Of a stretch of 64,000 nt of DNA, positions 44,631 to 57,508 are shown one piece after another. Made by a program: the position numbers and the translations under genes. This DNA comes from Burkholderiales bacterium. Lineage in GTDB: Bacteria > Pseudomonadota > Gammaproteobacteria > Burkholderiales > SG8-39. Position 1 is the stretch's first letter; the number at the start of each line of letters is the position of its first letter. Location: contig DASXKY010000058.1 in assembly GCA_036496555.1 (NCBI GenBank), forward strand, positions 4,115 through 68,114, read 5' to 3'. A model generated the notes under the pieces. That model saw only the letters and a list, made by a program, of their open reading frames with translations, searched no databases and was not told the DNA's origin.

Positions 44631-46300
44631 GGCGCGCGCTTTTCGATCCGCGCGCGGCCGCGCTCGCCGTCGCCGCCGTCAGCGGTGCGATGGCGCTCTA
44701 TGTCCTCGCCTACACCGAATATCCGTATCCGATCTGGCGCGGCCTCATCTTCCAGTACCTCCTGCGCCATCAGGACCTCGCCGGTCTCGCGCTCGTCGCC
44801 GCGCTCGCCCTCGGCGCTTGTCTGCCGGCGACGCACCAGCCGGCGCTCGCCTTCGTGGAAAAGCTCGGCGAGCGCCCCTGGCTCGTTGCGCTCGTCGCTT
44901 TTCTGGCGCTTTGCGCCGGTATGCTGCTGCTCGCGCACGGCCATGCGCTCGCCGGCGACGAGTACCTGACGCTGATGCAGAGCCGCATCTTCGCCGCCGG
45001 GCACCTCACGGGCCAGTACCCGCCGGACCTGCTGCCGTGGCTGATGCCGGACCACTATCGCTACCGCTGGATCATGGTCTCGGCGAACGGCGGCATCGCG
45101 GCGACCTATTGGCCCGGCTTCGCCCTGGTCCTCACGCCCTTCACGCTACTCGGCGCCTCCTGGGCCTGCAATCCCGCGCTTGCCGCGCTCTCGCTGGTGC
45201 TGATGGCGAAGCTGGCTGGCCGTCTCGCCGGGGGCCCCCAGGCGAGCGGCTGGGCGATGCTCTTCGCGCTCGCCTCGCCGGGCTTCGCTGGCCTTGCGCT
45301 GTCGTACTTCTCGATGACCGCGCACCTCCTTGCCAGCCTGGCCTTCGCCTGGCTGCTGCTCGAGCCGACGCCGCGGCGGCTGGTCGGCGCAGGGCTGGTC
45401 GGCTCGGCTGCGCTGCTCCTGCACCAGCCGGTGCCGCATATGCTGTTCGCCGCACCCTGGCTGGTCTGGCTCGCGCTTCAGCCGCGCGGGCGGCGCAATC
45501 TCGCGCTCATCGCGCTCGGCTACCTGCCCGGCGTCGCCGGCGGCGTCGCCTGGGCGGCATTCCTGCGCGAGATGCACGGGTTCATCATCGCGGCGCCGTT
45601 CGCTTCCGACGGCGAGCTCGGCAACCGCATCGGCAACCTAATCTGGTACTGGCAGATGCGCACGAGCTGGATCTTCGAGGCGCCCGCCGGCTACGCGATC
45701 GGCGCGCGCCTCGGCGAGCAGGTACGGCTGTGGGCGTGGGCCGCGCCCGGGCTGCCGCTCCTCGCCGCGGCCGGCTGGTGGATGAGCCGCCGGGAGCGCG
45801 CGCTCAATCTGCTCGCGCTTTCCTTCGGCGCCACGGTGCTCGGCTACTTCCTCGTGCGCTTCGACCAAGGCTACGGCTGGGGCGCGCGCTATGTGCATCC
45901 GGCGTTCGGCGCGCTGCCCGTTCTGGCCGCCGCGGCAATGGCGCGCCTGAAGGATCGCCCTGAGGGGGCGGCGCTGCGCGGCTGGGCGGCCGCCGCGGCG
46001 GCTGCGAGCCTCGTCTTCGCCACCGCGCTGCGCGGCGGACAGATCGAGGCCTTCATGGCCGAGCACCTTTCACACCGGCCGCCCTATGTCAGCGGCGAGC
46101 GCCAGGTGGTGCTCATCAAGCATGACGTCGACTACTACTTCGACTGGGATCTGGTGCAGAACGACCCATTCCTGCGCTCGCCTACCCTCGTGCTACTCAG
46201 CCGTGGCGCCGAGGAGGACGCGCGGATGATGGCCGGGCGCTTCCCGCGTGCGCGGCGCGTCTACCAGGGACTGTACGGCGAGGTCTGGACGCTGGACTGA
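44627..46300 (+). CDS. Polytopic membrane protein, GT-C-like glycosyltransferase candidate (557 aa)
   Basis: Many TM segments. An acidic motif sits in the first predicted external loop (HALAGDEYLTLMQSRIFAAG), as in ArnT/PMT-type enzymes. C-terminal soluble region. ATG overlaps the GT4 stop. It is codon 346 of track ORF 43592..46300. Confidence 0.6.
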   Translation: MRRALFDPRAAALAVAAVSGAMALYVLAYTEYPYPIWRGLIFQYLLRHQDLAGLALVAALALGACLPATHQPALAFVEKLGERPWLVALVAFLALCAGMLLLAHGHALAGDEYLTLMQSRIFAAGHLTGQYPPDLLPWLMPDHYRYRWIMVSANGGIAATYWPGFALVLTPFTLLGASWACNPALAALSLVLMAKLAGRLAGGPQASGWAMLFALASPGFAGLALSYFSMTAHLLASLAFAWLLLEPTPRRLVGAGLVGSAALLLHQPVPHMLFAAPWLVWLALQPRGRRNLALIALGYLPGVAGGVAWAAFLREMHGFIIAAPFASDGELGNRIGNLIWYWQMRTSWIFEAPAGYAIGARLGEQVRLWAWAAPGLPLLAAAGWWMSRRERALNLLALSFGATVLGYFLVRFDQGYGWGARYVHPAFGALPVLAAAAMARLKDRPEGAALRGWAAAAAAASLVFATALRGGQIEAFMAEHLSHRPPYVSGERQVVLIKHDVDYYFDWDLVQNDPFLRSPTLVLLSRGAEEDARMMAGRFPRARRVYQGLYGEVWTLD

Positions 46301-47886
46301 ACGGGCGGCGGCATCAGATGCAGCCGGTACCAGGTCCCTCGCTCCCCGCTGCCTCTCGGCGAGAGCGCCTCGAGCGTACGGCCGTAGTGGATGCTGAGAT
46401 GGCGCTGCAGCACGTGCAGCTGCCAGTAGTCGGCGATCAGGTCGAGATCCTTGCCTGCGAGCAGCACCGCGATCACGTCGCCCTCGCCGGTCGCGTCGCG
46501 CAGGGTCTTCAGCGCATAGGGCGCATAGGTGTGCACGGCCAGTGGATAGAGGCGAAGCGGGCAGCCGTCGCGTTGCGCCGAGAGCGGCCGGTAGAGCTCC
46601 TCGTAGGCGAGGCGCTCACCCCATACGACGTATAGCCCATCGCGCGGCAGGTTGCACAGCCGCGCACGCTGGTCGAGCTCCTCCGTGCGGTCGCCGGCGT
46701 TGCGCACGCCCAGCGCGGCCGCGAGCGCGAGCACCACGGCGACGGCGACCGCCGCTTCGCTCCGCGTCGCGCCGGCCGGGCGCGCGGCGAGCGCGAAAAG
46801 CAGGATGCCGGCGAGGAGCGGAATGTAGATGCGCATGGTGTTCGGCCGGCCGAGCACCAGCAGCGCGACCATCAGCACCGCGAAGCCGGCGAGCGACCAC
46901 CAACCCGCGCGCGTGCGCGCGCGCCAAACCGCGCAGGCGGCGAGCAGAAGCGGCGCGAGGAACGATTCGTTGGCGAAGGGCGCCGCGAACTCGGGCAGGC
47001 GCTGCACGTTCGACCACCACCACGCCGGTAGCGAGACGAAGCGGGTGAGCTCGAGCAGCCGGGCCGGCGGGAAGATGCGCGGGTCGGCGAAGAACCAGCC
47101 CTCGACCATGATCAGGTCGTTCGGCACGAAGCCTAGGCGCATCGCGTGCAGCGGGTCGTGCATGAGGTATTGCCGCAGCCCGTAGTCGGTGAAGAGCATG
47201 CGCGCCGGCTGCATGTCCATGAACGGCTGCCATTCGGGCGCGGCGTAGAACGCCTGGTCGTAGAGGGCGCTCGCGCCGAGGAGCAACGCCGCGCCCGCCA
47301 GCACCGCCGCGGTTCGCCACCAGCCGGCGCGCGGCGCGCCTAGCGGCGGCGCCAGCCAGAAAGGCGCCGTGACCGCGAGCACGAGCGCCGTCTCTGCGGC
47401 GCGCACCATTCCCCCGGCGACGAGCAGCGCGCCGGCGAGCGCCGCCCCCGGCGCGGTGCGCGCCGTGGCGAGGACCAGCGCGCCGGCGAGCGCAACCAGG
47501 CCCGCGACCACGGTGAACTGCGGGTACAGCGCCGCCGGCCCGAACACCGCCAGCAGGGCGGCCGCCGCGAGCGGCGTCGGCGCGCCGGCGCGCCAAAGGA
47601 AGCGCGCCGACACCGCGCCGGCGAGGGCCAGCAGCGCATACGTCATCAGGTCGTAGGCGCGGAACCCCCACGGCGTGCCGAGCGCACCGAGCAGCCTGCC
47701 GTAGGCGACCGAGAGGTAGAAGGTGCCCGGGCTCGGCGCTTCGGCGATGCCGTAGCCGTGCACGATCATCGCCATCATGGGATCGTCGACGGTCTGCCAG
47801 TAGGGATGGCCGAGCGCGAACGGCAGCAGGAGCGCCGCGGCGAGGGCTGCGCCTACGGCGAGCGCGGCGCGACCGCCTGCGCCCAT
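46261..47886 (-). CDS. Polytopic membrane protein, GT-C-like glycosyltransferase candidate (541 aa)
   Basis: TM1, then a loop GHPYWQTVDDPMMAMIVHGYG (DD motif), many further TM segments, and a C-terminal soluble domain. Last gene of the minus-strand operon. Start overlaps the GT2 stop (TGATG). Confidence 0.55.
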   Translation of the reverse strand: MGAGGRAALAVGAALAAALLLPFALGHPYWQTVDDPMMAMIVHGYGIAEAPSPGTFYLSVAYGRLLGALGTPWGFRAYDLMTYALLALAGAVSARFLWRAGAPTPLAAAALLAVFGPAALYPQFTVVAGLVALAGALVLATARTAPGAALAGALLVAGGMVRAAETALVLAVTAPFWLAPPLGAPRAGWWRTAAVLAGAALLLGASALYDQAFYAAPEWQPFMDMQPARMLFTDYGLRQYLMHDPLHAMRLGFVPNDLIMVEGWFFADPRIFPPARLLELTRFVSLPAWWWSNVQRLPEFAAPFANESFLAPLLLAACAVWRARTRAGWWSLAGFAVLMVALLVLGRPNTMRIYIPLLAGILLFALAARPAGATRSEAAVAVAVVLALAAALGVRNAGDRTEELDQRARLCNLPRDGLYVVWGERLAYEELYRPLSAQRDGCPLRLYPLAVHTYAPYALKTLRDATGEGDVIAVLLAGKDLDLIADYWQLHVLQRHLSIHYGRTLEALSPRGSGERGTWYRLHLMPPPVQSSVQTSPYSPW

Positions 47887-48803
47887 CACCGCCGCCAGAC
47901 TTTGCGCACGATGGTAAAGGGCCGGCGCTTGGTCTCGACGAACATCTTCGACAGGTAGATGCCGATCACGCCGAGAAACGAGATCATCAGGCCGCCGAGA
48001 AGCCAGACCGACGCGATGACCGAAGTCCAGCCCGCCGGCTGCGACACCAGCCACCAGCGCAGGAAGACGTAGACCAGGTAGCCGACGGCGAGGGCCGAGA
48101 TCGCCGCGCCGAAGTAGAAGATGGCGATCAGCGGCAGGTTGCTGAACGAGGTGATCGAGTTCACCGCCAGCGTGAGCTTGCGCCGCAGCGTATAGGTCGA
48201 CTGGTTGCCGTGGAAGCCCTTGCGCACCGCGAGCGGCACCTGCTCGAAGCCGGCCATCGACCACAGGCCGGGCAGGAACAGCTCGCGCTCGCGGAAGCGC
48301 AGCAGGCTCCGCACGTAGCGCCGCGTCATCAGGCGCGCGGTGAGCATGTTGGGCGCCACCGGCTGCGGCGACAGGCGGTTGAACAGCCACCAGAACAGCT
48401 CGCCCGAGGCGCGCTCGAACCACCGGCCTTTGCGCGCCACCTGCACGCCGTACACCACATCGCAGGCGCGGTGCTCCATCTCGGCGGCGAACTGCGTCAG
48501 CAGCTCTGGCTCCTCCTCGAGGTCGACGTCGATCAGGAAAACGCGCTCGCCGCGCGCGTAGGCGAGCCCGGTCATCATCGCCTTGTGGTGGCCGAAGTTG
48601 CGCGACAGGTCGACGCCGACCACGCGGGGGTCGGCGCGCTGCAGCTCGAGCACGCGCGCGAACGCGTCGTCGGGCGAGCCGTCGTTGACGAAGACGATCT
48701 CGAAGTCGTCGGTCAACGGCTGCGCGACGCGCACGATGCGCTCGTAGAACTCCCTCACGTACGGAGCCGAATGGAACAGCGTCGCGACGATCGACAGTTT
48801 CAT
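47886..48803 (-). CDS. GT2 polyprenyl-phosphate glycosyltransferase (GtrB/ArnC-like)
   Basis: KLSIVATLFHSAPYVREFYERI...EIVFVNDGSPDD...LSRNFGHHKAMMTGL...FLIDVDLEE, plus two C-terminal TM helices. It is codon 221 of track ORF 47886..49463. Confidence 0.88.
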   Translation of the reverse strand: MKLSIVATLFHSAPYVREFYERIVRVAQPLTDDFEIVFVNDGSPDDAFARVLELQRADPRVVGVDLSRNFGHHKAMMTGLAYARGERVFLIDVDLEEEPELLTQFAAEMEHRACDVVYGVQVARKGRWFERASGELFWWLFNRLSPQPVAPNMLTARLMTRRYVRSLLRFRERELFLPGLWSMAGFEQVPLAVRKGFHGNQSTYTLRRKLTLAVNSITSFSNLPLIAIFYFGAAISALAVGYLVYVFLRWWLVSQPAGWTSVIASVWLLGGLMISFLGVIGIYLSKMFVETKRRPFTIVRKVWRR

Positions 48804-49498
48804 GGGGCGCGGAGCATAGCAGAGCGCAGACGGAACAGGACCTCGAGCCGGTTCGGAAAAGCGGCGCCCATCGCGCCGCTCCTGTAGCGCGGCCCGACGA
48901 CGCGCTCGGCGTCGCAGCGCGCCGCGTCGAACAGCGCGCGCCACTGCGCATCGGTCAGGTAGCGCGCCCACACCATGCCGCCGAAGGGCAGGTTGCCGAT
49001 GAAGTCGAGCGCGGCGAGCCGCGCGTGGTCTAGCGCGGACGCCGCCAGGTGGTCCTTGATGACGATGCAGCGCCCGCCGGTGACGCGCACCGTTTCGGCG
49101 AGCAGCGGCGCGCGCGCCGCGAGCGGCACGTGGTGCAGCACGTTGCTGAAGATCGCGCAATCGAACGCGCCGTCGCCGTGCGGGATGCGCCTGCCGTCGA
49201 AGGTGGAGTGCGCGACGCCGAGGCCGGGCAGGAAGCGGTCGACCACGTCGATCGCGGTGACGTGCTTGCCCGGGAAGAAGCGCGCGATCGTCTCGCCGAC
49301 CAGGCCGCTGCCCGCGCCGACGTCGATCACGCGGCACGGCCCTTCGGGCATCAGGGCGGCCAGGTCCTTCAGCTGCCGCAGCAGGTAGCGCGGGCGGCGC
49401 CAGCGGTAGACCGGCTGGCGCGCGGCGAGCGCGCGCTCGAGCTCGGCGTCCGGCGGGAACCATGCCGGCGCGGGCCGCGGCGCGAGCTCGGCGATCAT
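48800..49498 (-). CDS. Class I SAM-dependent methyltransferase
   Basis: RVIDVGAGSGLVGE (motif I) and AFDCAIFSNVLHHV. It is codon 134 of track ORF 48800..49897. ATGA overlaps at both ends. Confidence 0.8.
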   Translation of the reverse strand: MIAELAPRPAPAWFPPDAELERALAARQPVYRWRRPRYLLRQLKDLAALMPEGPCRVIDVGAGSGLVGETIARFFPGKHVTAIDVVDRFLPGLGVAHSTFDGRRIPHGDGAFDCAIFSNVLHHVPLAARAPLLAETVRVTGGRCIVIKDHLAASALDHARLAALDFIGNLPFGGMVWARYLTDAQWRALFDAARCDAERVVGPRYRSGAMGAAFPNRLEVLFRLRSAMLRAP

Positions 49499-49869
49499 GC
49501 CTGCCCCCGCTTCACGCGCAGCGCCCAGCGATTGGCGATCCAGTTGAAGAGGAACAGCAGCGCGGTGACGGCGGGCGCGGCGAGCGGCACCGGCACGCCC
49601 AGGAGGTCGACGAATACGTAGAGCCCCGCGAGCGACAGCGGATAATTCGCGCTCACGGTGGCGGCGTAGCGCGCGAAGGACGCGTGACCGCGCGCGGCAC
49701 CCGGGAAGGTCCAGCGCGTATGCAGCACGTAGCCGAACACGGTCACCACCGCGAGCGACACCAGCGAGGAGACGAAATAGTGCCAGCCGGCGAAATCGCC
49801 GCCGATCATGATCACGTTGTGCAGCAGCGCGCAGGCGAGGCCGACGCCGAGAAAGCGGCCGATCGCCAT
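49495..49869 (-). CDS. GtrA-family membrane protein (lipid-linked sugar translocation)
   Basis: 124 aa, four TM. RFLGVGLACALLHNVIM...GYVLHTRWTF...LFLFNWIANRWALR is the GtrA pattern. Confidence 0.85.
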   Translation of the reverse strand: MAIGRFLGVGLACALLHNVIMIGGDFAGWHYFVSSLVSLAVVTVFGYVLHTRWTFPGAARGHASFARYAATVSANYPLSLAGLYVFVDLLGVPVPLAAPAVTALLFLFNWIANRWALRVKRGQA

Positions 49870-50555
49870 CAGGGCAGCCGCCTGAAGAGCGCGACATAGA
49901 CGCAGGCGTTGTCGTTCACCACTGCGCGCGGCGTGAGGCGATCCTCGAGCCAGGCCTTGAAGCTGAAGAGGCAGGCGGCCGTCGCCGCGAGCAGGCCGCC
50001 CGCCACCGGCAGGCGCCGCAGGAAGTGGCACAGGCCGACCGACCGCAGCACGGTGGTCCAGGCGAGCGGGCCGGCGACCGCCTGCATCGCCTGCAGCGCG
50101 AAGCCGCCCGCCTCCACCTCGCGCTTCAGGCCCTCGCCGGTCCAGCGGCGGTAGTCGCCTGGATGCGGGTGGTAGAGCCAGGCGCCGTGGGTCGAGAGCA
50201 GCAGCCAGCCTCCCGGTGCGAGCACACGATGCGCCTCGCCGAGGTAGCGCGGCACGTCCCACACGTGCTCGAGCACCTGGAACGAGGCGACGAGGTCGGC
50301 GCTCGCGTCGCCCGCGCCGAGGCGGCCGTCCGCGGCGATCGCCACCTCATGGCCGCCGTCCAGGTCGGCGCCGCTGTAGTGCGCCCCGGCGGCTGCGAAC
50401 CAGCGCTCGTAGGGACGCTCGCCGCAGCCGAAATCGAGCACGCGTCGGCCCTTCAGCTCGAGCGGCGCGAGCGCCGCCCGGATCGCGTGCGCGAGCCCGC
50501 TCAGCACGTACCACTCGGGCTGCCAGGGACGCGGCGCGCTGCGGCTCGCATTCAC
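49869..50555 (-). CDS. Class I SAM-dependent methyltransferase (second copy, different sequence)
   Basis: RVLDFGCGERPY (motif I), ADLVASFQVLEHV and LAPGGWLLLST. GTG at 50555 overlaps the upstream stop (GTGA). Confidence 0.8.
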   Translation of the reverse strand: MNASRSAPRPWQPEWYVLSGLAHAIRAALAPLELKGRRVLDFGCGERPYERWFAAAGAHYSGADLDGGHEVAIAADGRLGAGDASADLVASFQVLEHVWDVPRYLGEAHRVLAPGGWLLLSTHGAWLYHPHPGDYRRWTGEGLKREVEAGGFALQAMQAVAGPLAWTTVLRSVGLCHFLRRLPVAGGLLAATAACLFSFKAWLEDRLTPRAVVNDNACVYVALFRRLP

Positions 50556-52513
50556 CGGCGCAGGCCCTCGCGGCAGGCTTCGGCGAGCGGCGCCGGCACG
50601 CCGCTCTCCCAATCCTCGACGCGCCCGAGCGGGAAATGGCGCAGCTCGAAGAACGGCGCCAGCGCGAGCGCGCCGCCGCGCGTTTCGAGGCGCGCCTCCA
50701 GGCCGGCATAGTTGCGCGACCACTCGCTGCCCATGCGCTCGGTGACCGCGGTCTGTCCGCGGAACACGCCGGGGCAGCTCCTCTCCATGCGATCGAACAG
50801 CGTGGACATGCGTCGCTCCTCAGCCTGCTCCTCGGCGCTCCACGCGCCGGGACGCAGGCCGCACGATACCAGCGCCAGCGGCGGCGGCCGCAGGGAACTG
50901 TCCTCGGTGACCAGCAGGTTGGCAAAACCCGATAAGGCATCGTCGCGGCGCGGCCGCCAGGGGATGGCGAAGCAGTCATCCGGGTCGACGCGAAAGCCGT
51001 AGCGCAACAGCGTCGCGTCGTAGTTCTCGACCGTCTCCGCGCGCGGCCGGCCGTCGCGCTGCAGGCGCAGTGCGCGCCCGAGCGTGCGCACGCGGCCCGC
51101 GTGCCGCGCCTCGAGTGCCCGCAGGCGCTTGGCGCCCTGCTCGAGGCTGTGCTGGCCGCGCAGGTTGACGAAGGAGGAGTCCGGATGCAGGAACGGCGCG
51201 ACCGCGGCCATCGACTGCGTCTCGATGGTGAGGTAGAGAGCCGCTTCGCGGCGTGCGCGCTCCGGCACCTGCCAGCCGAACCAGCGCTCCGACCAGCGGT
51301 CGACCATGAAGTAGCGTGTGGGCGAGATGAGCGCGCAGGCGGTCACCTGCGCGACGAGCAGCACGAGGAGCGCGCCGCGCGCGTAGCGGCCGAGCAGGCG
51401 CGCGGCGAGCAGCGCGGCGAGCGGTCCGGCGAGCAGCAGGAGGAGCAGGCCGTAGCGCGCGTTGCCCGAGGTCGCGAGCCAGAGCGCATAGGCGGCGGCG
51501 AAAAACCCAGCGAGCCGCAAGTCGAGCGGCGCCAGGGCGCGGCCGGGCGCGCCGGCGGGCCGCACGCGCCGTGCGATGGCGAGCGCAAGCAAGCCGAGGG
51601 CAAGGAGCACGAGCGCCGCGAAGCGCAGATCCGGTGCGCTGATCTCGGCGTAGGTCATGCTGTCGGGCGAAAGGATGCGCAGCGGGAACAGCAACGCGTC
51701 GCCGAGGCCGCGCGGCGCGAAGCGCTCGGCGCCGATGTTGATCGGCGGGAAATCGGGCGAGCGGAACCAGCCGTTGAAGAGCGGGAAGAACGGGTTGCCG
51801 AACGCGCGCCACAACGCGACGACGGTCGGTCCGGCCAGGGCCGCGACGGCGATCGTGCCGCCGGCGGCGTAGGCGGCGAGCGCGCGCCAGCGCAAGCCGA
51901 GAAGCGGCAGCGCCGCCAGCGCGAAGAGCGCGTTCGAGTACTTCAGCGCCGCGGCGGCGCCGAAGAGGAGGCCCGCAAGCGCGGCGCGGCGCGGCGCCGG
52001 CATCCCGCCTTCCCCGGCGAGCAGCAGCACGGCGCCCAGCATCGGCACGGTGAGCAGCGGGTCGAGGAAGGAGGTGCCGACGGTCGCGGCAAAGACCGCG
52101 CCGGCGGCGCCGAGGGCGGCGCCGAGCGCCGAAAGGAGCGCGCGCTCGCGCGGCGGCTGATCGGCAAAGAGGCGGCTCGCGAGCAGGTAGAGCAGCACGA
52201 TATTGGCGGCGTGGACGAGCGCGAGCACGGCCGACACCACGGCGCTGTGCCAGCCGGCCGAGACCATCCAGTAGAACGGCAGGTACCCCAGCGGATTGAG
52301 ATAGCTTTGCGCGCTGGCGGCGAAGTAGTCGCGCTCGAGGCCGCCGTTCAGGAATGCGTAGGCGACGTAGTAGTGATAGTGCAGCAGGTCCCAGTTGAGG
52401 TCCTTGCCGGCGTACAGCGTCCACACCACGGCGAGCAACGCCGCCGCGAGCGAGAAGCCGCGCGCGCCAAGCAGCGAGACCACCTTGAATCCGTCAAACC
52501 ACCCCTTGAACAA
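50552..52513 (-). CDS. Polytopic membrane protein, GT-C-like candidate (653 aa); paralogue of 57509..59440
   Basis: TTG start preceded by AAGGGGGG. N-terminal KDLNWDLLHYHYYVAYAFLNGGLERDYFAASAQSYLNPLGYLPFYW, then about 10 or more TM segments, and a roughly 200-aa Cys-containing C-terminal domain. Confidence 0.65.
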   Translation of the reverse strand: MFKGWFDGFKVVSLLGARGFSLAAALLAVVWTLYAGKDLNWDLLHYHYYVAYAFLNGGLERDYFAASAQSYLNPLGYLPFYWMVSAGWHSAVVSAVLALVHAANIVLLYLLASRLFADQPPRERALLSALGAALGAAGAVFAATVGTSFLDPLLTVPMLGAVLLLAGEGGMPAPRRAALAGLLFGAAAALKYSNALFALAALPLLGLRWRALAAYAAGGTIAVAALAGPTVVALWRAFGNPFFPLFNGWFRSPDFPPINIGAERFAPRGLGDALLFPLRILSPDSMTYAEISAPDLRFAALVLLALGLLALAIARRVRPAGAPGRALAPLDLRLAGFFAAAYALWLATSGNARYGLLLLLLAGPLAALLAARLLGRYARGALLVLLVAQVTACALISPTRYFMVDRWSERWFGWQVPERARREAALYLTIETQSMAAVAPFLHPDSSFVNLRGQHSLEQGAKRLRALEARHAGRVRTLGRALRLQRDGRPRAETVENYDATLLRYGFRVDPDDCFAIPWRPRRDDALSGFANLLVTEDSSLRPPPLALVSCGLRPGAWSAEEQAEERRMSTLFDRMERSCPGVFRGQTAVTERMGSEWSRNYAGLEARLETRGGALALAPFFELRHFPLGRVEDWESGVPAPLAEACREGLRR

Positions 52514-52531
52514 CCGCCCCCCTTGCCTGCG

Positions 52532-54571
52532 CTAGTTCTTCAGACGCGCCTCCAGCGCCTGCAGCGCCGCCGCGTCGCCTTTGTTGCGCAGCAGGTCCGT
52601 CAGCACGATGAGCGCGGTGTTTTCCCGCACCGGCCACAGCGAAATGGCGGTCTGCAGGTCGTCGATCGCGCCGGCCTCATCGCCGGCGCGCAACCGCATG
52701 TGCCCGCGCAGCTCGAAATAACGCGCCTGGTAATTCTTCGGCGGGTCGCTCGGCATGCCGAGGCGCACGCGCTCGAGCAGCCGCGCCGCGTCCGCGGCCG
52801 AGTAGCCCTTCTCTTCGCCGAGCATGCCCTCCAGGAGCCCGAGCGCGCCGTAATAGTCCTCGGCGAGCGCCGCGGCATGGCGCGCCGCGCGCGCATCGAG
52901 CGCCTGCCCGCGGCCCTTGCGCAAGGCGAGCAGCCGGGCGTACTTGCGCCGCAGCTCGCCCTGCAGCGCCTCGTCCCATGCGCTGTCGCCGCGGACATTG
53001 AGGAGGTCATCCTCGAGGAAGCGCAGGAAGCTCTCCGGCAGCTCGCCCGGCGTGACGGCCGTGCCGGGCTTGCGATCGAGCACCAGGTACAGCCAGTAGT
53101 TGGTGCGCGACCAATCGGTGAAATAGGACTCGCTGAAGGTCGCGACGGCGATGACGCCGCGCTCGGCCTCGACGTTGCGTCGCAGCTGGTCCTTCATGCC
53201 CTGCGCCGTGATGCGCAGCGGATGGAACATGCGGTTGCCTAGCGTGAGCCCGGCGGGCTGCACCAGCGTCAGGTCGGGCCGCCGCCCCTCGATCAGGTGG
53301 AAGTACGCCATCGGGATGAGGTCCCATTCGCCGCGCGCCGCGACGATGGCGTCCTTCGGCAGCGCATCCATCAGCGTCTTCACGTAGCGCCCGGACCATT
53401 GCGAGCCGTCGCGCAGGTTGCGCTCGAGGCCGAGGCCGAGGATCGCCGCGAGCAGCACGGCGCAGGCCGCGGCGGTGGGCGCAGGCCGCAGCTTCTCGCG
53501 CAGCCGCGCGAAGCCGAGCGCCATCCAGATCGCGCCGATGCCGTACGCCGGCAGCGGATAGACGTGGAACATGTGCTTGTGCAGCCCGTCGTAGTCGAAG
53601 GCGAGCACGAGCAGCAGCACCACCGACGGGCCGAGAAAAGCGAGCGTCAGGCCGAGCGCGACGCGCGTCCCCCAGGCGCGCCACTGCAGCGCGAAGCCGG
53701 CGGCGGCGAGCAGGCCGCCCGCGAGCGCGAACTGGTAGAAGAACTCGCGCCAGAAGAAGACCAGGAAATTGAGGTGATCGAGCCAGGTCGACGTGTAGGA
53801 GAAGTCCACCTCGCCGTAACCCCTGCGACCGAGGAAGAACCAGATCTCGCGCCACGATTCGAGCGGGCCGTAGAAGCTGACCGGCAGCGGCGCCCATGAG
53901 CGCACCACCAGCCAGACGTAGGGCAGCACGCCGAGCAGGAACAGGGCCGCGAGGAGGAAGAATCGGCGGCGGATCTCCTGCGCGCGCGGCCACAGCAGCA
54001 CCGCGATGCCCGGCGCGGCGAGGAGCATCAGCGGGTAGTGGTTGGCGAGGCTCATGCCGGCCACCGCCGCGAGCAGCGGCAGCACGCGGCCGTTCGCCGG
54101 CGGGCCTTCGGCGGGCGCAGCGCGTAGCGCGAGGTACAGCACCGAGAACAAGAACAGCGTGTTGAGCGTGTAGACCTCGGCGATGATGGCCTGCGACCAG
54201 TAGACCGGCGAGAGGCCGAGGCCGAGCGCGGCAAGCCAGGCAGGCAGGCGTCCGTCGACCAGCTGCCGCACGCACAGCCACAGCACGCCGCAGCTCAGGC
54301 CTCCGAACAGCGCGCTCAGGAGGTGCACGCGGTAGGCGACCGAGCCGAAGGGCAGCATCGAGAAGAGATGGCCGGCGAGGGTGAACAGCGGATAGCCCGG
54401 CGGATGCTCGATGCCGAGGAAATAGCTCGACATCACGAACAGGCCGTCGTCTTCCAGCGCGACCGAGCGCGGCGCAGTCGCCGCGTAGAGCGCGAACAGC
54501 GCCACGGCGATCGCCGCCGCCTGCAGCCAGTCGGCCCTGTCCGGCTGCCGCGGCGTCGCGCGCAGCGTCAT
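52532..54571 (-). CDS. DUF2723/TMEM260-type GT-C membrane protein with C-terminal TPR domain
   Basis: SVALEDDGLFVMSSYFLGIEHPPGYPLFTLAGHLF is the DUF2723 signature as I recall it. Multi-TM, with a TPR-like C-terminus. ATG at 54571 (codon 42 of the track ORF) overlaps the upstream stop (ATGA). Confidence 0.78.
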   Translation of the reverse strand: MTLRATPRQPDRADWLQAAAIAVALFALYAATAPRSVALEDDGLFVMSSYFLGIEHPPGYPLFTLAGHLFSMLPFGSVAYRVHLLSALFGGLSCGVLWLCVRQLVDGRLPAWLAALGLGLSPVYWSQAIIAEVYTLNTLFLFSVLYLALRAAPAEGPPANGRVLPLLAAVAGMSLANHYPLMLLAAPGIAVLLWPRAQEIRRRFFLLAALFLLGVLPYVWLVVRSWAPLPVSFYGPLESWREIWFFLGRRGYGEVDFSYTSTWLDHLNFLVFFWREFFYQFALAGGLLAAAGFALQWRAWGTRVALGLTLAFLGPSVVLLLVLAFDYDGLHKHMFHVYPLPAYGIGAIWMALGFARLREKLRPAPTAAACAVLLAAILGLGLERNLRDGSQWSGRYVKTLMDALPKDAIVAARGEWDLIPMAYFHLIEGRRPDLTLVQPAGLTLGNRMFHPLRITAQGMKDQLRRNVEAERGVIAVATFSESYFTDWSRTNYWLYLVLDRKPGTAVTPGELPESFLRFLEDDLLNVRGDSAWDEALQGELRRKYARLLALRKGRGQALDARAARHAAALAEDYYGALGLLEGMLGEEKGYSAADAARLLERVRLGMPSDPPKNYQARYFELRGHMRLRAGDEAGAIDDLQTAISLWPVRENTALIVLTDLLRNKGDAAALQALEARLKN

Positions 54572-55662
54572 TCGCGCGAGCGCGCCGCCGCGCCCCAGGT
54601 GAACGAAGCCGTGGTGAAGAAGTTCCAAAACGCGGCGGTGAGCGCGCCGACGATCCCCGCCAGCCAGTACGTCCCCGAATGCAGGTACAGCCACTCGGCG
54701 ACGGCGAGGTTGACGATCGAGCCGATGCCGCAGGCGAGATAGAAGCTGACGAGCGCGCGCCAGACCTGCCGGCCGCGCACGCGCTGGTCGGCGTAGGTGA
54801 AGGCATTGTTGAGGAAGAAGTTGCTGGTCATCGCGGCCAGCGTGGCGAGCGCCTGGCTGGCGAGGAACTGGCCGCCGCTCGCCTGGAACACCGCGGTCAG
54901 CACCGCGAGGTGCACCCCGACGCCGGTGACGCCGACTGCGCAGAACAGGAAGAAGCGCGCCGGCAGCAGCCGGCCGAAGAGATGGTAGAGGAGCAGCACG
55001 AAGAACTCGGCCATCACGCGCAGGCCGAGCTTGCTCTCGCCGCGCTGGCGGCTGCGCATGCGGTACGGCACCTCCGAGATGCGCACCTCGCTTCGCGCCG
55101 CGGCAATCAGGTCGAGCAGGATCTTGAAGCCGCGGCCGTACAGGCGCCGCACCACGCGCTCGAGGAAGCGGCGGCGCACCATGAAGAAGCCGCTCATCGG
55201 ATCGGTGATGCCGCCGGCGAGCGAGCGGCCGAAGAAGGTGGCGAGACGGCTCGCGCCGACGCGATGCGCCGAGAGCTCGCCGGTGCTGCCGCCCTCGAGG
55301 TAGCGGCTCGCGTTGACGATATCGTCGTCGCCGGACTTGAGGCGCTCGAGCATCTGCGGCAGGAGGCGCTCGTCGTGCTGCATGTCGGCGTCGATCACGG
55401 CGATGTACGGCGCCGAGCTCGCCAGCATGCCCTCGACGCAGGCGGAGGCGAGGCCACGGCGCCCGATGCGCTGCAGGCAGCGCACGCGCGCGTCGCGCTG
55501 CGCGCGCTCGCGCACCAGCTGCTCGCTGCCGTCGTCGGCGTCGTCGACGACGACGATGGTTTCCCAGTCGCGGCCTTCAAGCGCGCGCTCGAGCGCCTCG
55601 AGGAGCGTGGGAATGTTCTCGCGCTCGCGGTAGGCGGGCACTACCACCGTAAGCTCCGGCAT
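54568..55662 (-). CDS. GT2 polyprenyl-phosphate mannose/hexose synthase (Dpm1-like) fused to a GtrA-like domain
   Basis: N-terminal part: LTVVVPAYRERENIPTLLEAL...VVDDADDGSEQL...IAVIDADMQHD. C-terminal four-TM part: FFLFCAVGVTGVGVHLAVL...MTSNFFLNNAFTY (GtrA pattern). Confidence 0.88.
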   Translation of the reverse strand: MPELTVVVPAYRERENIPTLLEALERALEGRDWETIVVVDDADDGSEQLVRERAQRDARVRCLQRIGRRGLASACVEGMLASSAPYIAVIDADMQHDERLLPQMLERLKSGDDDIVNASRYLEGGSTGELSAHRVGASRLATFFGRSLAGGITDPMSGFFMVRRRFLERVVRRLYGRGFKILLDLIAAARSEVRISEVPYRMRSRQRGESKLGLRVMAEFFVLLLYHLFGRLLPARFFLFCAVGVTGVGVHLAVLTAVFQASGGQFLASQALATLAAMTSNFFLNNAFTYADQRVRGRQVWRALVSFYLACGIGSIVNLAVAEWLYLHSGTYWLAGIVGALTAAFWNFFTTASFTWGAAARSRE

Positions 55663-55667
55663 GCGCG

Positions 55668-56813
55668 CTAGGTCTCGTTCATGCGCAGCAGGCTAAGAAG
55701 AAACGAGGCAAGCGAGACTTCCATCCCGCCGATCATCATGGTGGCGGCGGGGATGGTGTCGCGCATCACTACTCGCGGGTCGAGCGGCCCGAAGCCGCCT
55801 TCGCGCCATACCCAGAAAGCGCCAGCGCTCCACGCGAACCCCGTAACGGCCAGCGCCACGCCGGCGAGCAGCCCTCGTTCGAGCGTGAACAGGCCGAGCA
55901 ACCGCTCCAGGCCGGCCCGGCGCGGCAGCAGCCCCGCGTTCTGCGCCGCGACGCGCGCGAACAGGGCAAACAGACAGAGCTGCAGGCCAAGCAGGGTAGC
56001 GGAGGACGAATACAGCATGGTGTGGATGTCGAGGCCGGCGCCGCCGATGCGAAGCGGCGCGAAGTAAAGCGCGAACGTGAGTAGCGAGCCGAGCGTCAGC
56101 AACGCAATCCCGGGATACAGGAACAGCCAGCGCGGGCTGAAGAGCAGCAGGAAACGCAGGTGACGCCAGCCGTCGCGCCAGCTGCGCAGGTGCGGCGGCC
56201 GGCCGCGGCCGTCCGGCCGCAGCGTGGTGGGGACTTCGACGATGCGCCAGCCCGCCAGCGCCGCCTTTACCACCACCTCGCTCGCGAACTCCATCCCCGG
56301 GCTCTTCAGCCCGAGCGAAAGGATGCGGTCGCGGTCGAAGCCGCGCAGGCCGCAATGGAAGTCGCGCGCGACGCCGATGCGGAAGAACACCCGCCCGATG
56401 AGGGAGAGCACGGGATTGCCGAGATAGCGGTGCAACGGCGGCATCGCGCCGGGCTCGATGCCGCCCGTGAAGCGGTTGCCCATCACCAGCGGGTAGCCCT
56501 CGCGCAGCTTCTCGACGAAAGGCTCGAGACGGCTGAAGTCGTAGCTCTCGTCGGCGTCGCCCATGATGACGTACCTGCCCTGCGCCGCCTCGATCCCGGC
56601 GCGCAGGGCCGCGCCGTACCCGCGCTGCCTCACGCCCACCACGCGCGCCCCGGCGCGCTCGGCGAGGCTCTGCGAGCCGTCCTTCGAGCCGTTGTCGGCG
56701 ACGAGCACCTCGCCGTCGATGCCGGCGCGCTCGAGGAAGGCCCGCGCGGTGGCCACGCAGCGCGCGACCGTGGCCGCTTCGTCCAGGCAGGGCATCAGAA
56801 TCGTGAGTTCCAT
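55668..56813 (-). CDS. GT2 glycosyltransferase with C-terminal multi-TM region
   Basis: LTILMPCLDEAATV...VLVADNGSKDGS...VIMGDADESYD (DxD motif), followed by at least four TM helices. Confidence 0.86.
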   Translation of the reverse strand: MELTILMPCLDEAATVARCVATARAFLERAGIDGEVLVADNGSKDGSQSLAERAGARVVGVRQRGYGAALRAGIEAAQGRYVIMGDADESYDFSRLEPFVEKLREGYPLVMGNRFTGGIEPGAMPPLHRYLGNPVLSLIGRVFFRIGVARDFHCGLRGFDRDRILSLGLKSPGMEFASEVVVKAALAGWRIVEVPTTLRPDGRGRPPHLRSWRDGWRHLRFLLLFSPRWLFLYPGIALLTLGSLLTFALYFAPLRIGGAGLDIHTMLYSSSATLLGLQLCLFALFARVAAQNAGLLPRRAGLERLLGLFTLERGLLAGVALAVTGFAWSAGAFWVWREGGFGPLDPRVVMRDTIPAATMMIGGMEVSLASFLLSLLRMNET

Positions 56814-56836
56814 CCGGTCGCGCGGTCAGTGAAGGC

Positions 56837-56869
56837 AAAAAAAAAGGTACCCCACAGGGTACCTTTTTT
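56837..56869 (-). terminator. Strong rho-independent terminator downstream of pilA (bidirectional geometry)
   Basis: GGTACCC (56846..56852) / GGGTACC (56857..56863) stem with a 4-nt loop. It is flanked by a 9-A run on the plus strand, which reads as 9 U after the stem on the minus strand, and by 6 T on the other side. Confidence 0.8.
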
Positions 56870-56884
56870 CCGGTCTTGAGCCGG

Positions 56885-57352
56885 TTAGCCGCGGCAGGAG
56901 CCGGGCAGGTATTTCGTGTTGACGGTGGTGCCGTCGGTCGTGCTGCCGCAGCGCCAGCCGAACAGGCCCGAACCGGAGTTCGTGGTCCACACGGCAGCGG
57001 TCGACCCGTTCGACAGCGGGATCAGCGTCACCAGCGAGGCGTTCACCGCCTGCGAGATGTTCTGGATCGTCGCCGTCACGGCGCCGTCCTGCGAGGTCGA
57101 AAGGCCGGCCACGTATTTCGACGCAACGCCGCCTTCGCAACCCCAGCTGTTGGCGGCCGGCTGGCTGCCACCCGACTGGTACACCTCGGTGATCGACGTA
57201 CGGCACGCACTCATGGCGAGAATAACTTCCGACATCTTCGCCCGCACCGTGTAGTCCTGATACGCCGGCAGCGCGACGGCCGCCAGAATGCCGATAATCG
57301 CGACCACGATCATCAGTTCGATCAGCGTAAAGCCCTTCTGCAGTTGTTTCAT
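56885..57352 (-). CDS. pilA: Type IVa major pilin
   Basis: [34 protein letters not shown] class III signal with a conserved Glu5. C-terminal disulfide loop [22 protein letters not shown] at 57352 (codon 51 of the track ORF) follows AAGGAG. Confidence 0.93.
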
Positions 57353-57406
57353 TTGCTTCTCCTTCTCCCGTTGTTGTTTAGAGGCATGAATGCCCGAGAC
57401 AGATAC

Positions 57407-57422
57407 TGCACAAGCTATGCCA
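57407..57422 (-). promoter_or_regulatory. Candidate sigma-54 (-24/-12) promoter of pilA
   Basis: The minus strand reads TGGCATAGCTTGTGCA. The GG and GC doublets are spaced exactly as in the consensus TGGCACG-N4-TTGCW. It lies about 55 nt upstream of the pilA ATG. Confidence 0.6.
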
Positions 57423-57508
57423 AGGCTTGAATCTCGCAATTTCGTTAGGAAAGTCGCGGTTTTGGCGAGGTCTGGGCGACCAAATTCGGCCCGGGGTGAC
57501 AACTTTCG

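What the first reader, a model, noticed from the sequence alone, without database searches (positions are those of the whole stretch)
52532..55662. DUF2723/TMEM260-type GT-C with TPRs, translationally coupled to a Dpm1-GtrA fusion: a self-contained O-mannosylation-like module
**What the sequence shows:**
- Gene 54568..55662 fuses a Dpm1/Ppm1-like GT2 domain (VVVPAYRERENIP...DDADDGS...DADMQHD) to a four-TM GtrA-like domain.
- Its stop overlaps (ATGA) the start of a 679-aa protein carrying the DUF2723 signature EDDGLFVMSSYFLGIEHPPGYPLF and a C-terminal TPR region.

**Established knowledge:** Dpm1/Ppm1 makes polyprenyl-P-mannose. GtrA proteins are implicated in flipping lipid-linked sugars. The human DUF2723 member TMEM260 has been reported as a protein O-mannosyltransferase. 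Bacterial DUF2723 proteins are essentially uncharacterised.

**Inference:** donor synthesis, flipping and transfer are encoded in two coupled genes, and the TPR domain may serve to recognise the protein substrate.
Basis: partly seen in the sequence, partly recalled or inferred. Interest (0 to 1): 0.6.

Follow-up and report, generated by a model that had tools for sequence, protein, structure and literature searches.

The report
Pilin-linked TMEM260-type sugar-transfer gene pair
Two overlapping genes in an uncultured soil Burkholderiales bacterium encode a maker of a lipid-linked sugar (probably mannose) and a bacterial relative of the human protein O-mannosyltransferase TMEM260; they lie in an operon that starts just after the pilus-subunit gene, so they most likely sugar-coat the pilus, a job not yet described for this enzyme family in bacteria.

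Summary
Gene 54568..55662(-) is a GT2 domain fused to a GtrA-like 4-TM domain. Its TGA overlaps (ATGA) the ATG of a 679-aa PF11028 (TMEM260/DUF2723) GT-C at 52532..54571(-).

- **Donor synthase:** it aligns end to end with Pyrococcus furiosus Dol-P-Man synthase (5mlz, E 4e-45) and keeps all eight active-site residues.
- **Transferase:** it aligns with human TMEM260 (9rql, profile E 6e-47). It keeps D52, H67, R264 and Y267, has Glu at the catalytic-base position D441, and lacks R355. The AlphaFold model (pLDDT 86.7) shows a TM core, an alpha/beta domain and a helical repeat. No TPR HMM hits this protein.
- **Not self-contained:** the pair are genes 2 and 3 of an operon starting 23 nt after the pilA terminator. 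The island has two more polyprenyl-P-sugar synthases, a free GtrA, at least four more polytopic GT-C-like proteins and two methyltransferases.
- **Synteny:** in 24 close relatives the fusion gene is directly upstream in 21 of 23 testable loci, and a pilin gene lies 2.7-5.8 kb upstream in 15. In a distant gammaproteobacterial clade the pilin lies just downstream instead.

Best reading: a polyprenyl-P-mannose-dependent O-glycosyltransferase that primes PilA. This is a new variant of known three-component and pilA-linked (TfpW-like) systems. Sugar and acceptor are inferred, not shown.

The parts
54568..55662 (-). GT2 + GtrA-like 4-TM fusion, 364 aa: candidate polyprenyl-phosphate mannose (hexose) synthase of the P. 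furiosus type-III DPMS architecture
   Evidence: - Pfam: PF00535 2.9e-28, PF04138 2.4e-19.
- 5mlz DPMS: E 4.2e-45 over query 4-356 / chain 25-372.
- PfDPMS D89, D91, Q93, R117, R131, S135, F177, K178 correspond to D91, D93, Q95, R120, R134, S138, F179, K180.
52532..54571 (-). TMEM260/DUF2723-family GT-C, 679 aa: TM core about 12-403, alpha/beta (Rossmann-like) domain about 404-512, helical TPR-like repeat 513-676
   Evidence: - PF11028 at 2.1e-28.
- Human TMEM260 9rql: phmmer 5e-32, profile 6e-47.
- AlphaFold pLDDT 86.7, pTM 0.87.
- Foldseek best hits are GT-C enzymes: PglB, Pmt4, ALG9/12, DPY19.
- It is the only PF11028 gene in the genome.
54568..54571 (-). ATGA stop/start overlap between the two genes (translational coupling)
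   Evidence: Read directly. The same 4-nt or 1-nt overlap is seen in relatives' called genes.
56885..57352 (-). pilA: type IVa prepilin, 155 aa ([21 protein letters not shown]...), Ser/Thr-rich, four Cys; the likely acceptor
   Evidence: - PF00114 at 6e-16 plus N_methyl at 7.7e-10; translation.
- Orthologous pilins lie beside the cluster in relatives.
56837..56869 (-). Intrinsic terminator after pilA: perfect 13-bp stem AAAAAAGGTACCC/GGGTACCTTTTTT, 3-nt loop, T-run. The operon's first ATG (56813) lies 23 nt after the T-run
   Evidence: Read directly. The simple consensus scan did not list it.
55668..56813 (-). First operon gene: second GT2 lipid-sugar-synthase-like protein, 381 aa (AglJ/PpgS-like; GT2_TM_C in orthologues). 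It ends 5 nt before the fusion gene
   Evidence: - PF00535 at 2.8e-22.
- TIGR04182 AglJ 3e-32 and PpgS 1e-19, both below cut-off.
- 5mlz only 1.2e-7; junction read.
50552..52513 (-). GT-C-like polytopic protein, 653 aa, starting 18 nt after the TMEM260-like gene; weak GT87 similarity; paralogue of 57509..59434
   Evidence: - PF09594 GT87 at 3.9e-5, 24.0 bits against a 25-bit cut-off.
- No PDB sequence hit.
- Always directly downstream in close relatives.
57509..59434 (-). GT-C-like paralogue, about 641 aa, directly upstream of pilA
   Evidence: PMT_2 at 1.6e-5, just below cut-off. It is 35-39% identical to the orthologues of the other paralogue.
46261..50555 (-). Rest of the operon (boundaries approximate): methyltransferase 49869-50555, free GtrA 49495-49869, methyltransferase 48800-49498, GtrB-type GT2 47886-48803, 541-aa polytopic protein 46261-47886
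   Evidence: - Pfam methyltransferase hits; GT2 hit.
- Translations read.
- The GtrB-type GT2 hits Synechocystis sll0501 (5ekp) at 3.6e-47 over its full length.

Best explanation
The two genes are the donor-and-transferase core of a pilA-linked periplasmic O-glycosylation island.

1. **Donor synthesis (inferred from homology).** On the cytoplasmic face, the GT2 domain of the fusion protein transfers a hexose, most likely mannose from GDP-mannose, to polyprenyl (undecaprenyl) phosphate.
2. **Flipping (inferred; suggested for PfDPMS only).** The lipid-linked sugar is moved to the periplasmic face, possibly by the enzyme's own GtrA-like four-helix domain.
3. **Transfer (inferred from residue conservation with human TMEM260).** The TMEM260-like GT-C binds the lipid-linked sugar through D41 and H56 in the first periplasmic loop and R249 and Y252 in the loading loop. 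Its periplasmic alpha/beta and helical-repeat domains hold an extended acceptor segment. E415 (Asp in most relatives) activates a Ser/Thr hydroxyl, giving an O-linked sugar with inversion.
4. **Acceptor (inferred from conserved synteny).** The acceptor is most likely the membrane-anchored pilin PilA before it is assembled into the pilus.
5. **Elaboration (speculative).** The other lipid-sugar synthases, GT-C-like proteins and methyltransferases of the island would extend and decorate the glycan.
For: **Donor synthase**
- It aligns over its full length with PfDPMS at E 4.2e-45, against ArnC at 7e-13 and GtrB at 1e-4.
- All eight PfDPMS active-site residues are kept, including D89 and K178, which contact the mannosyl group.
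- The TM-pocket Arg341 is Asn, as in non-Thermococcales type-III DPMS.
- The genome has two full-length ManC genes, so GDP-mannose is available.
- The island's three GT2 proteins are three different subtypes, and the DPMS-type one is the one coupled to the TMEM260-type gene.

**Transferase**
- PF11028 scores far above its cut-off.
- The profile alignment to human TMEM260 covers residues 31-468, at E 6e-47.
- D52, H67, R264 and Y267 are invariant in 33 of 33 homologues. The D441 position is Asp in 25 and Glu in 8. The roles of these residues come from bioRxiv 10.64898/2026.03.17.711096.
- The model is confident and GT-C-like.

**Acceptor**
- The operon starts 23 nt after the pilA terminator.
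- In 24 genome loci at 45% identity or more, the fusion gene is directly upstream in 21 of 23 testable loci, and a pilin lies 2.7-5.8 kb upstream in 15. Most of the rest have flanks too short to tell.
- In a gammaproteobacterial clade at 31-44% identity the pilin lies 0.3-5.5 kb downstream of the GT-C in 10 loci. This is a different gene order, without the GT87-like neighbour.
- Prepilin motifs number about 8 in 3.0 Mb, so about 5% would be expected per 18-kb window. The binomial tails are 1e-14 and 6e-5, and they ignore relatedness.

**Conservation pattern**
- The donor side is well conserved: the synthase is 72-76% identical among relatives and the first-loop motif 82%.
- The periplasmic domains are only 43-48% identical, as expected if they track a variable acceptor.
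Against: - There is no experiment of any kind.
- Sugar specificity of GT2 polyprenyl-phosphate glycosyltransferases cannot be read reliably from sequence. All NCBIfam hits are far below their cut-offs.
- R355 of TMEM260, a mannose contact, aligns with an invariant Val.
- The catalytic-base position is Glu, not Asp, in this protein.
- Three close loci (L020-L022), and one genome of another Burkholderiales family (G475), have the gene pair but no pilin within 6-9 kb.
- Most distant relatives (45 of 56) have no pilin nearby.
- One sister genus has pilin and the TMEM260-like gene but no fusion gene nearby.
- With four or more other GT-C-like proteins in the island, a different one could be the priming enzyme.
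Confidence: 0.5

Rival explanations
1. The TMEM260-like enzyme is not the priming protein glycosyltransferase. It adds its sugar to a glycan: either a chain that another GT-C of the island started on pilin, or a surface polysaccharide or LPS. This is what GtrC-type and ArnT-type enzymes do.
For: - The island holds at least four more GT-C-like polytopic proteins and three lipid-sugar synthases. This suggests a multi-sugar product.
- Most bacterial three-component systems modify glycans (PMC11194591).
- The pair occurs without a pilin in G475 and in L020-L022.
Against: - The only characterised family member is protein-specific, and its acceptor-side catalytic residue in the luminal domain is kept here as Asp or Glu.
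- In the gammaproteobacterial clade the GT-C sits next to pilin without the other GT-C-like genes.
Confidence: 0.2
2. The pair glycosylates proteins other than PilA, or many periplasmic or surface proteins, as actinobacterial Ppm1/Pmt do. On this reading the position next to pilA reflects co-regulation or a shared island, not substrate choice.
For: - 45 of 56 distant relatives and some close ones lack a neighbouring pilin.
- The family is very large: 7,152 clusters at E<=1e-10. It cannot all be pilin-dedicated.
Against: - Linkage to pilin is kept in two different gene orders, far above chance.
- The operon begins 23 nt after the pilA terminator. This is the layout of the known pilin accessory genes in P. 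aeruginosa (PMC11841053).
Confidence: 0.15
3. The mechanism is the same but the donor is different. The fusion enzyme makes polyprenyl-P-glucose, -HexNAc or another sugar, not mannose. This concerns only the sugar and is compatible with any of the acceptor readings.
For: - The best NCBIfam hits are PgfS, AglJ and ArnC-type enzymes with various sugars, all below cut-off.
- The DAD-x-Q motif is shared with ArnC.
- The mannose-contact residue R355 of TMEM260 is not kept.
Against: - Similarity to a mannose-specific enzyme is much stronger and spans the full length, and its mannosyl contacts D89 and K178 are kept.
- TMEM260's mannose contacts D52, H67 and Y267 are invariant.
- ManC is present.
- The automated JGI name is dolichol-phosphate mannosyltransferase. 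This is an annotation, not evidence.
Confidence: 0.3

Closest known systems
Human TMEM260 (CAZy GT117; PDB 9rql, 9rqm, 9rqn), the ER protein O-mannosyltransferase of IPT domains
   Same: - Same Pfam family.
- Alignable from TM1 into the luminal alpha/beta domain (E 6e-47).
- Donor-binding residues D52, H67, R264 and Y267 are kept.
- An acidic residue sits at the catalytic-base position.
- Same three-part layout: TM core, alpha/beta domain, C-terminal helical repeat.
   Different: - It is bacterial and periplasmic.
- It has Glu instead of Asp at position 441, and R355 is not kept.
- There is no Asn ladder in the helical repeat; only N651 is nearly invariant.
- No TPR HMM hits it.
- The likely acceptor is a pilin, not an IPT domain.
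- The lipid carrier would be undecaprenyl, not dolichyl.
Pyrococcus furiosus type-III dolichyl-phosphate mannose synthase (PDB 5mlz, 5mm0, 5mm1, 9ep0)
   Same: - Same one-chain layout: GT2 catalytic domain plus a GtrA-like four-helix domain.
- Full-length alignment at E 4e-45.
- All eight listed active-site residues are kept.
- Arg341 is Asn, as in other type-III members.
   Different: - It is bacterial and mesophilic. PMC12992685 states that, by its strict motif definition, type III occurs only in archaea.
- Pocket residue Asn248 is His here.
- Its activity is untested.
TfpW cassette of Pseudomonas aeruginosa group IV strains (pilA-tfpW, with a GtrA-like partner and the D-arabinofuranose donor genes)
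   Same: - A GT-C enzyme encoded behind pilA.
- About 650 aa, 11 TM helices, a DD motif in the first periplasmic loop, and a periplasmic C-terminal TPR domain.
- It depends on a lipid-linked monosaccharide and a GtrA-like protein (bioRxiv 10.1101/2020.04.19.049825).
   Different: - The donor pathway differs. The island scanned here has no DprE1/DprE2 or phosphoribosyltransferase genes, and has a DPMS-type synthase instead.
- The GT-C is the third gene after pilA, not the first.
- I could not test whether TfpW is itself a PF11028 member.
GtrA/GtrB/GtrC-type three-component periplasmic glycosylation systems
   Same: A polyprenyl-P-sugar synthase (GT2), a GtrA-type small membrane module and a polytopic periplasmic transferase are encoded together (PMC11194591).
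   Different: - The synthase and the GtrA module are fused in one chain.
- The transferase belongs to the TMEM260 family.
- The likely acceptor is a protein, not O-antigen.
- A separate, classical GtrA plus GtrB-type set also sits in the same operon.
Actinobacterial protein O-mannosylation
   Same: The logic is the same: polyprenyl-P-mannose is made inside and then used by a GT-C enzyme outside to O-mannosylate Ser/Thr.
   Different: - The GT-C family differs (GT39 against GT117).
- The synthase has no fused GtrA domain.
- It acts on many substrates rather than being pilin-linked.

Membership tests
TMEM260 / DUF2723 (PF11028; CAZy GT117) | Match to the family HMM above the curated cut-off | tested here: met
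   99.8 bits against a 24.2-bit cut-off, E 2.1e-28. All 33 aligned homologues match.
TMEM260 / DUF2723 (PF11028; CAZy GT117) | Sequence homology to human TMEM260 beyond the generic GT-C first loop | tested here: met
   The profile of 33 homologues aligns with 9rql at E 6.1e-47, positions 20-447 against chain 31-468. This includes the luminal RGD...EGLRPDI segment.
TMEM260 / DUF2723 (PF11028; CAZy GT117) | Donor-binding residues D52, H67, R264 and Y267 (mutation abolishes human activity) | tested here: met
   They map to D41, H56, R249 and Y252, each invariant in 33 of 33.
TMEM260 / DUF2723 (PF11028; CAZy GT117) | Catalytic base D441 in the luminal alpha/beta domain | tested here: inconclusive
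   The aligned position is E415 in this protein. It is Asp in 25 and Glu in 8 of 33 homologues. The acidic character is kept, but activity with Glu is untested.
TMEM260 / DUF2723 (PF11028; CAZy GT117) | R355 in TMH10 contacting mannose (R355A keeps about 20% activity) | tested here: not met
   It aligns with an invariant Val337. His333 and His336 lie nearby, and the alignment is less certain in this stretch.
TMEM260 / DUF2723 (PF11028; CAZy GT117) | Architecture: 11-TMH GT-C core, Rossmann-like domain, then TPR domain | tested here: met
   - The AlphaFold model (pLDDT 86.7) has TM helices at 12-403, a strand/helix domain at 409-508 and eight helices at 513-676.
- The helical part matches TPR proteins only weakly by fold and not at all by HMM.
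TMEM260 / DUF2723 (PF11028; CAZy GT117) | Polyprenyl-P-mannose-dependent O-mannosylation of protein Ser/Thr | not testable with these tools
   This needs enzyme assays or glycoproteomics.
Type-III DPMS (P. furiosus type) | Single chain with a GT2 domain plus a GtrA-like 4-TM domain, alignable over the full length | tested here: met
   5mlz at E 4.2e-45, query 4-356 against chain 25-372 of 374. PF00535 plus PF04138.
Type-III DPMS (P. furiosus type) | Active-site residues D89, D91, Q93, R117, R131, S135, F177 and K178 | tested here: met
   All eight are identical in the HMMER alignment (chain numbering = native + 22).
Type-III DPMS (P. furiosus type) | TM-domain polar-pocket residues Asn248, Phe338 and Arg341/Asn | tested here: inconclusive
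   - Asn248 is His here.
- Arg341 is Asn, the state in non-Thermococcales members.
- Phe338 aligns with Ala, with a Phe one position later.
Type-III DPMS (P. furiosus type) | The authors' full motif definition, by which the type is archaeal only | not tested
   I did not retrieve or apply the motif set in the Methods of PMC12992685.
Three-component (GtrABC-like) periplasmic glycosylation | GT2 polyprenyl-P-sugar synthase, GtrA-type module and polytopic periplasmic transferase encoded together | tested here: met
   All three functions are present in two coupled genes. The adjacency is kept in 21 of 23 close loci.
pilA-linked pilin glycosyltransferase cassettes (TfpW type) | GT-C gene co-located with and downstream of the major pilin gene, conserved in relatives | tested here: met
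   It is the third gene after pilA, with the terminator and a 23-nt gap before the operon. The layout is conserved.
pilA-linked pilin glycosyltransferase cassettes (TfpW type) | Sequence homology to TfpW itself | not testable with these tools
   - No TfpW sequence could be reached.
- PF11028 was found in only 1 of 201 genomes sampled from the family that holds Teredinibacter, which is reported to carry a TfpW homologue.
- No Pseudomonas or Azotobacter names appeared among the 120 best relatives of a Pseudomonadales member.
pilA-linked pilin glycosyltransferase cassettes (TfpW type) | Polyprenyl-P-D-arabinofuranose donor genes (phosphoribosyltransferase, DprE1, DprE2) | tested here: not met
   None of the island's ORFs from 39004 to 63914 gave such Pfam or NCBIfam hits.

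The most novel reading that the evidence does not exclude
Bacterial GT117 (TMEM260-family) enzymes, paired with a bacterial type-III-like, possibly self-flipping polyprenyl-P-mannose synthase, would be dedicated type IV pilin O-mannosyltransferases. That would be a third enzymatic route to glycosylated pili, beside the PglL/TfpO and TfpW routes. It would also be the first assigned substrate for a family of more than 7,000 sequence clusters, and a bacterial counterpart of a human disease enzyme. If TfpW turns out to be a remote member of the same family, the two pilin routes would merge into one.
Probability: 0.4. Interest if true: 0.75.

Novelty: new variant of a known kind. Interest (0 to 1): 0.57.

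Why it matters
- **An unassigned family.** TMEM260 is a human disease gene. Its bacterial relatives form a very large family: 13,536 clusters at E<=0.001 and 7,152 at E<=1e-10. In the literature I could search, none has an assigned substrate.
- **A concrete experiment.** This locus offers a small, testable three-gene set: pilA, a lipid-sugar synthase and the transferase.
- **Known biology to test against.** Pilin glycosylation is known to alter pilus function and to protect against pilus-specific phages in Pseudomonas.
- **A challenge to a recent statement.** The locus also shows a bacterial enzyme with the architecture and active site of the archaeal type-III Dol-P-Man synthase, which a 2026 paper describes as restricted to hyperthermophilic archaea.

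Tried and rejected
1. **Whether TfpW is a PF11028 member.** I could not obtain a TfpW sequence.
   - The Kus 2008 paper (PMC2576659) is not held.
   - A 201-genome sample of the Cellvibrionaceae group gave only the known Pseudomaricurvus hit.
   - The 120 best relatives of the Pseudomaricurvus protein named no Pseudomonas, Azotobacter, Acinetobacter or Teredinibacter.
   - The question stays open.
2. **Fold comparison with TMEM260 itself.** The Foldseek PDB copy (to April 2026) does not list 9rql, so only generic GT-C hits came back. I used sequence-profile alignment instead.
3. **Other libraries.**
   - NCBIfam gave nothing for the GT-C.
   - PADLOC gave nothing for four island proteins.
   - PHROGs gave only a GtrB-like hit for the GT2 domain.
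4. **TPR by sequence.** There was no hit for this protein.
5. **Consensus promoter and terminator scan of 52000-58000.** It found nothing above chance, and it missed the pilA hairpin, which I read by eye.
6. **Considered and rejected.**
   - The 720-aa GTG-started version of the GT-C ORF: homologue lengths and N-termini fit the ATG at 54571.
   - An ArnC/ArnT-type lipid A modification: ArnC similarity is 30 orders of magnitude weaker than DPMS similarity.

Full report
**1. The observation**

The region is about 70% G+C. Both reading frames have coding-type third-position G+C of 0.93-0.94.

Gene 54568..55662(-) encodes 364 aa and contains the quoted motifs. Its TGA shares bases with the ATG at 54571 (ATGA) of a 679-aa frame that ends at 52532.

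- The first protein matches PF00535 (2.9e-28) and PF04138 GtrA_DPMS_TM (2.4e-19).
- The second matches PF11028 TMEM260-like (2.1e-28, 99.8 bits against a 24.2-bit cut-off) and PMT_2 (2.2e-9).

A longer GTG start at 54694 is possible. However, about 1,000 full-length relatives are 673-709 aa and begin like the ATG form. In relatives, the called genes overlap by 4 nt or 1 nt in the same way.

The one soft point is the 'TPR region'. No TPR HMM hits this protein, even at E 0.1. The claim rests on eight predicted helices at 513-676, weak fold matches to MamA, LapB and OGT-TPR, and the position of the TPR domain in human TMEM260.

**2. The fusion protein**

Against all PDB sequences, the best hit is Pyrococcus furiosus Dol-P-Man synthase (5mlz), at E 4.2e-45 and aligned end to end. 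ArnC scores 7e-13 and Synechocystis GtrB 1e-4.

I mapped the residues that PMC12992685 lists for donor, metal and lipid-phosphate binding: D89, D91, Q93, R117, R131, S135, F177 and K178. All eight are identical here (D91, D93, Q95, R120, R134, S138, F179, K180).

In the membrane domain:
- Arg341 is Asn, as that paper reports for all type-III members outside Thermococcales.
- Asn248 is His.

The same paper reports a crystal state with Dol-P-Man bound upside-down inside the GtrA-like domain. It proposes that the enzyme may flip its own product.

That paper also says that, by its strict definition, type III occurs only in archaea. This bacterial protein, and thousands of relatives at 72-90% identity, at least share the architecture and the active site.

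The genome has two full-length ManC genes, so GDP-mannose is available.

**3. The GT-C**

It hits human TMEM260 (9rql) at 5e-32. A profile of 33 homologues hits it at 6e-47 over chain residues 31-468, that is, the whole membrane core and the start of the luminal domain.

The cryo-EM preprint (10.64898/2026.03.17.711096) defines three groups of residues:
- D52 and H67 in the sugar-recognition motif.
- R264 and Y267 in the donor-loading loop.
- R355, and D441 as the catalytic base in the luminal Rossmann-like domain.

In the alignment these map as follows:
- D52, H67, R264 and Y267 map to D41, H56, R249 and Y252, all invariant in 33 of 33 homologues.
- D441 maps to E415 here (Asp in 25 homologues, Glu in 8).
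- R355 maps to an invariant Val.

The AlphaFold model is confident (pLDDT 86.7, pTM 0.87). It shows the same three-part build. Its best structural neighbours are lipid-linked-sugar GT-C enzymes: PglB, Pmt4, ALG9/12, DPY19 and AftB. The Foldseek library did not list 9rql.

The genome has a single PF11028 gene.

**4. The surroundings**

The pair is not a stand-alone module. On the same strand, in order of transcription, lie the following:

| Coordinates | Product |
|---|---|
| 62445-63914 | GAF-HD-GYP protein |
| 59437-62424 | 995-aa membrane/spermidine-synthase-like fusion |
| 57509-59434 | GT-C-like protein |
| 56885-57352 | pilA, a classical type IVa prepilin |
| 56837-56869 | perfect 13-bp terminator hairpin with T-run |
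| 55668-56813 | AglJ/PpgS-like GT2 (starts 23 nt after the T-run) |
| 54568-55662 | the fusion gene (starts 5 nt later) |
| 52532-54571 | the TMEM260-like gene (4-nt overlap) |
| 50552-52513 | GT87-like polytopic protein (starts 18 nt later) |
| 46261-50555 | methyltransferase, free GtrA, second methyltransferase, GtrB-type GT2 (5ekp 3.6e-47), 541-aa polytopic protein |

The junctions were read directly.

The three GT2 proteins are three different subtypes. The DPMS-type one is the one coupled to the TMEM260-type gene.

**5. Comparative evidence**

*Metagenome contigs.* Three unrelated contig families carrying 50-55%-identical GT-C genes show the same block: pilin (one or two copies), GT2, GT2-GtrA, TMEM260-like, GT-C-like, then methyltransferases. 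Upstream lie a GAF-MshEN-type pilus ATPase and the HD-GYP gene.

*Species-representative genomes.* I analysed 80 loci.
- Among 24 loci at 45% identity or more, the fusion gene is directly upstream in 21 of 23 with enough sequence.
- In the same 24, a pilin gene lies 2.7-5.8 kb upstream on the same strand in 15. Six of the other nine have upstream flanks too short to reach it. L020-L022 have no pilin within their 6.3-8 kb upstream flanks.
- Among 56 loci below 45% identity, 11 have a pilin. Ten of these lie 0.3-5.5 kb downstream of the GT-C, a different gene order that lacks the GT87-like neighbour. A full-length fusion-gene homologue lies upstream in five of these loci, directly adjacent in one and 2-5 kb away in four.
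- Loci from Nitrospirales, Latescibacterota, Binatia and Vicinamibacterales have neither partner.

*Chance expectation.* The genome has about eight prepilin motifs in 3.0 Mb. That gives about a 5% chance per 18-kb window. The observed frequencies are far above this, although the loci are not independent.

*Distribution.* In an even sample of 401 Burkholderiales genomes, only 6 have a PF11028 match, 4 of them in the window's own family.

*Exceptions.*
- One genome of another family (G475) has the pair with spermidine-synthase-like, TPR-GT41 and FkbM genes, but no pilin within 9 kb.
- Two genomes of a sister genus have pilins, the first GT2, a YfhO-like protein and the TMEM260-like gene, but no fusion gene.

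*Conservation pattern.* Among relatives the synthase is 72-76% identical and the first-loop motif of the GT-C 82%. The periplasmic domains of the GT-C are only 43-48% identical. This fits a fixed donor and a diverging acceptor.

**6. Mechanism**

Shown:
- The domain content.
- The gene coupling.
- Conservation of the catalytic residues.
- The synteny with pilA.

Inferred:
- Polyprenyl-P-mannose is made on the cytoplasmic face.
- It is flipped, perhaps by the fused GtrA-like domain.
- It is used in the periplasm by the GT-C to O-glycosylate Ser/Thr of membrane-anchored PilA.
- The remaining enzymes extend and methylate the glycan.

A possible acceptor site is the Ser/Thr immediately before K-Y-V/I at the end of the alpha-beta loop. 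It is present in all the Burkholderiales-clade pilins aligned except one apparently frameshifted copy. This is a hypothesis only.

**7. Comparison with known systems**

The system works like a GtrABC-type three-component system, and like the pilA-linked TfpW cassette of P. aeruginosa group IV strains. TfpW is about 650 aa, with 11 TM helices, a DD motif in loop 1, a periplasmic TPR domain and a GtrA-like partner.

It differs in three ways:
- The transferase family is GT117.
- The synthase is DPMS-type and carries a fused GtrA module.
- There are no arabinofuranose donor genes.

I could not test whether TfpW itself belongs to PF11028.

In the paper library:
- 'DUF2723' occurs in one paper, the human TMEM260 discovery, which mentions only 'distant homologs in bacteria'.
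- No paper contains both 'TMEM260' and 'pilin'.

Earlier notes of this scan report similar pilin-plus-DUF2723 pairings in other phyla. I treat these as leads, not as evidence.

**8. Verdict**

However, it is one part of a larger pilin glycosylation island, not a self-contained module. It is a new variant of known kinds of system.

Interest is moderate to good. It gives a specific, easily testable substrate hypothesis for a very large uncharacterised family (7,152 clusters at E<=1e-10), and it provides a bacterial example of the type-III DPMS architecture. The sugar and the acceptor remain inferences.

Noticed in passing
window 54568-55662: A bacterial protein with the full architecture and all eight active-site residues of the P. 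furiosus type-III Dol-P-Man synthase. It has thousands of relatives at 72-90% identity in Burkholderiales metagenomes. A 2026 paper (PMC12992685) describes type III as restricted to hyperthermophilic archaea.
   Followed up: partly
window 59437-62424; also L001, L009, L013, L016, L036, L053, L063, L097: A roughly 1,000-aa membrane/spermidine-synthase-like fusion protein (NF037959-like) recurs near TMEM260-like genes, including in distant loci that have no pilin (30-63% identity). Its role in the island is unexplained.
   Followed up: partly
window 56885-57352 and pilins of L001-L044: All aligned Burkholderiales-clade pilins but one (L010, apparently frameshifted) share WGCE...[S/T]-K-Y-[V/I] at the end of the alpha-beta loop. 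From memory, this is the region where Neisseria PilE Ser63 is glycosylated. The gammaproteobacterial clade instead keeps a Thr four residues earlier (G-x-T-x-x-G-K-Y-V).
   Followed up: partly
window 62445-63914 and upstream genes in L001, L004, L005: The pilin island is preceded by a GAF-HD-GYP gene and, in relatives, by a GAF-MshEN-T2SSE pilus ATPase. This suggests a pilus controlled by c-di-GMP. The ATPase gene lies beyond the window end.
   Followed up: no
window 50552-52513 and 57509-59434: Two paralogous polytopic proteins of about 650 aa bracket pilA. Their Pfam hits (GT87, PMT_2) fall just below cut-off, and the downstream one (50552-52513, the only one searched) has no PDB sequence hit. 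They may be an unnamed GT-C family.
   Followed up: no
L098 10262-12535 and L100 (sister genus); L003 6662-8917: In some relatives a protein of about 750 aa with a weak YfhO-type C-terminus sits between the first GT2 and the TMEM260-like gene. In one genus it takes the place of the GT2-GtrA fusion gene.
   Followed up: partly
L068 / L089 (Pseudomaricurvus alkylphenolicus KCTC 32386): A cultured gammaproteobacterium carries an adjacent GT2-GtrA plus TMEM260-like pair (49% and 32% identity to the window proteins), with no pilin within 8 kb. It is a possible experimental handle.
   Followed up: partly
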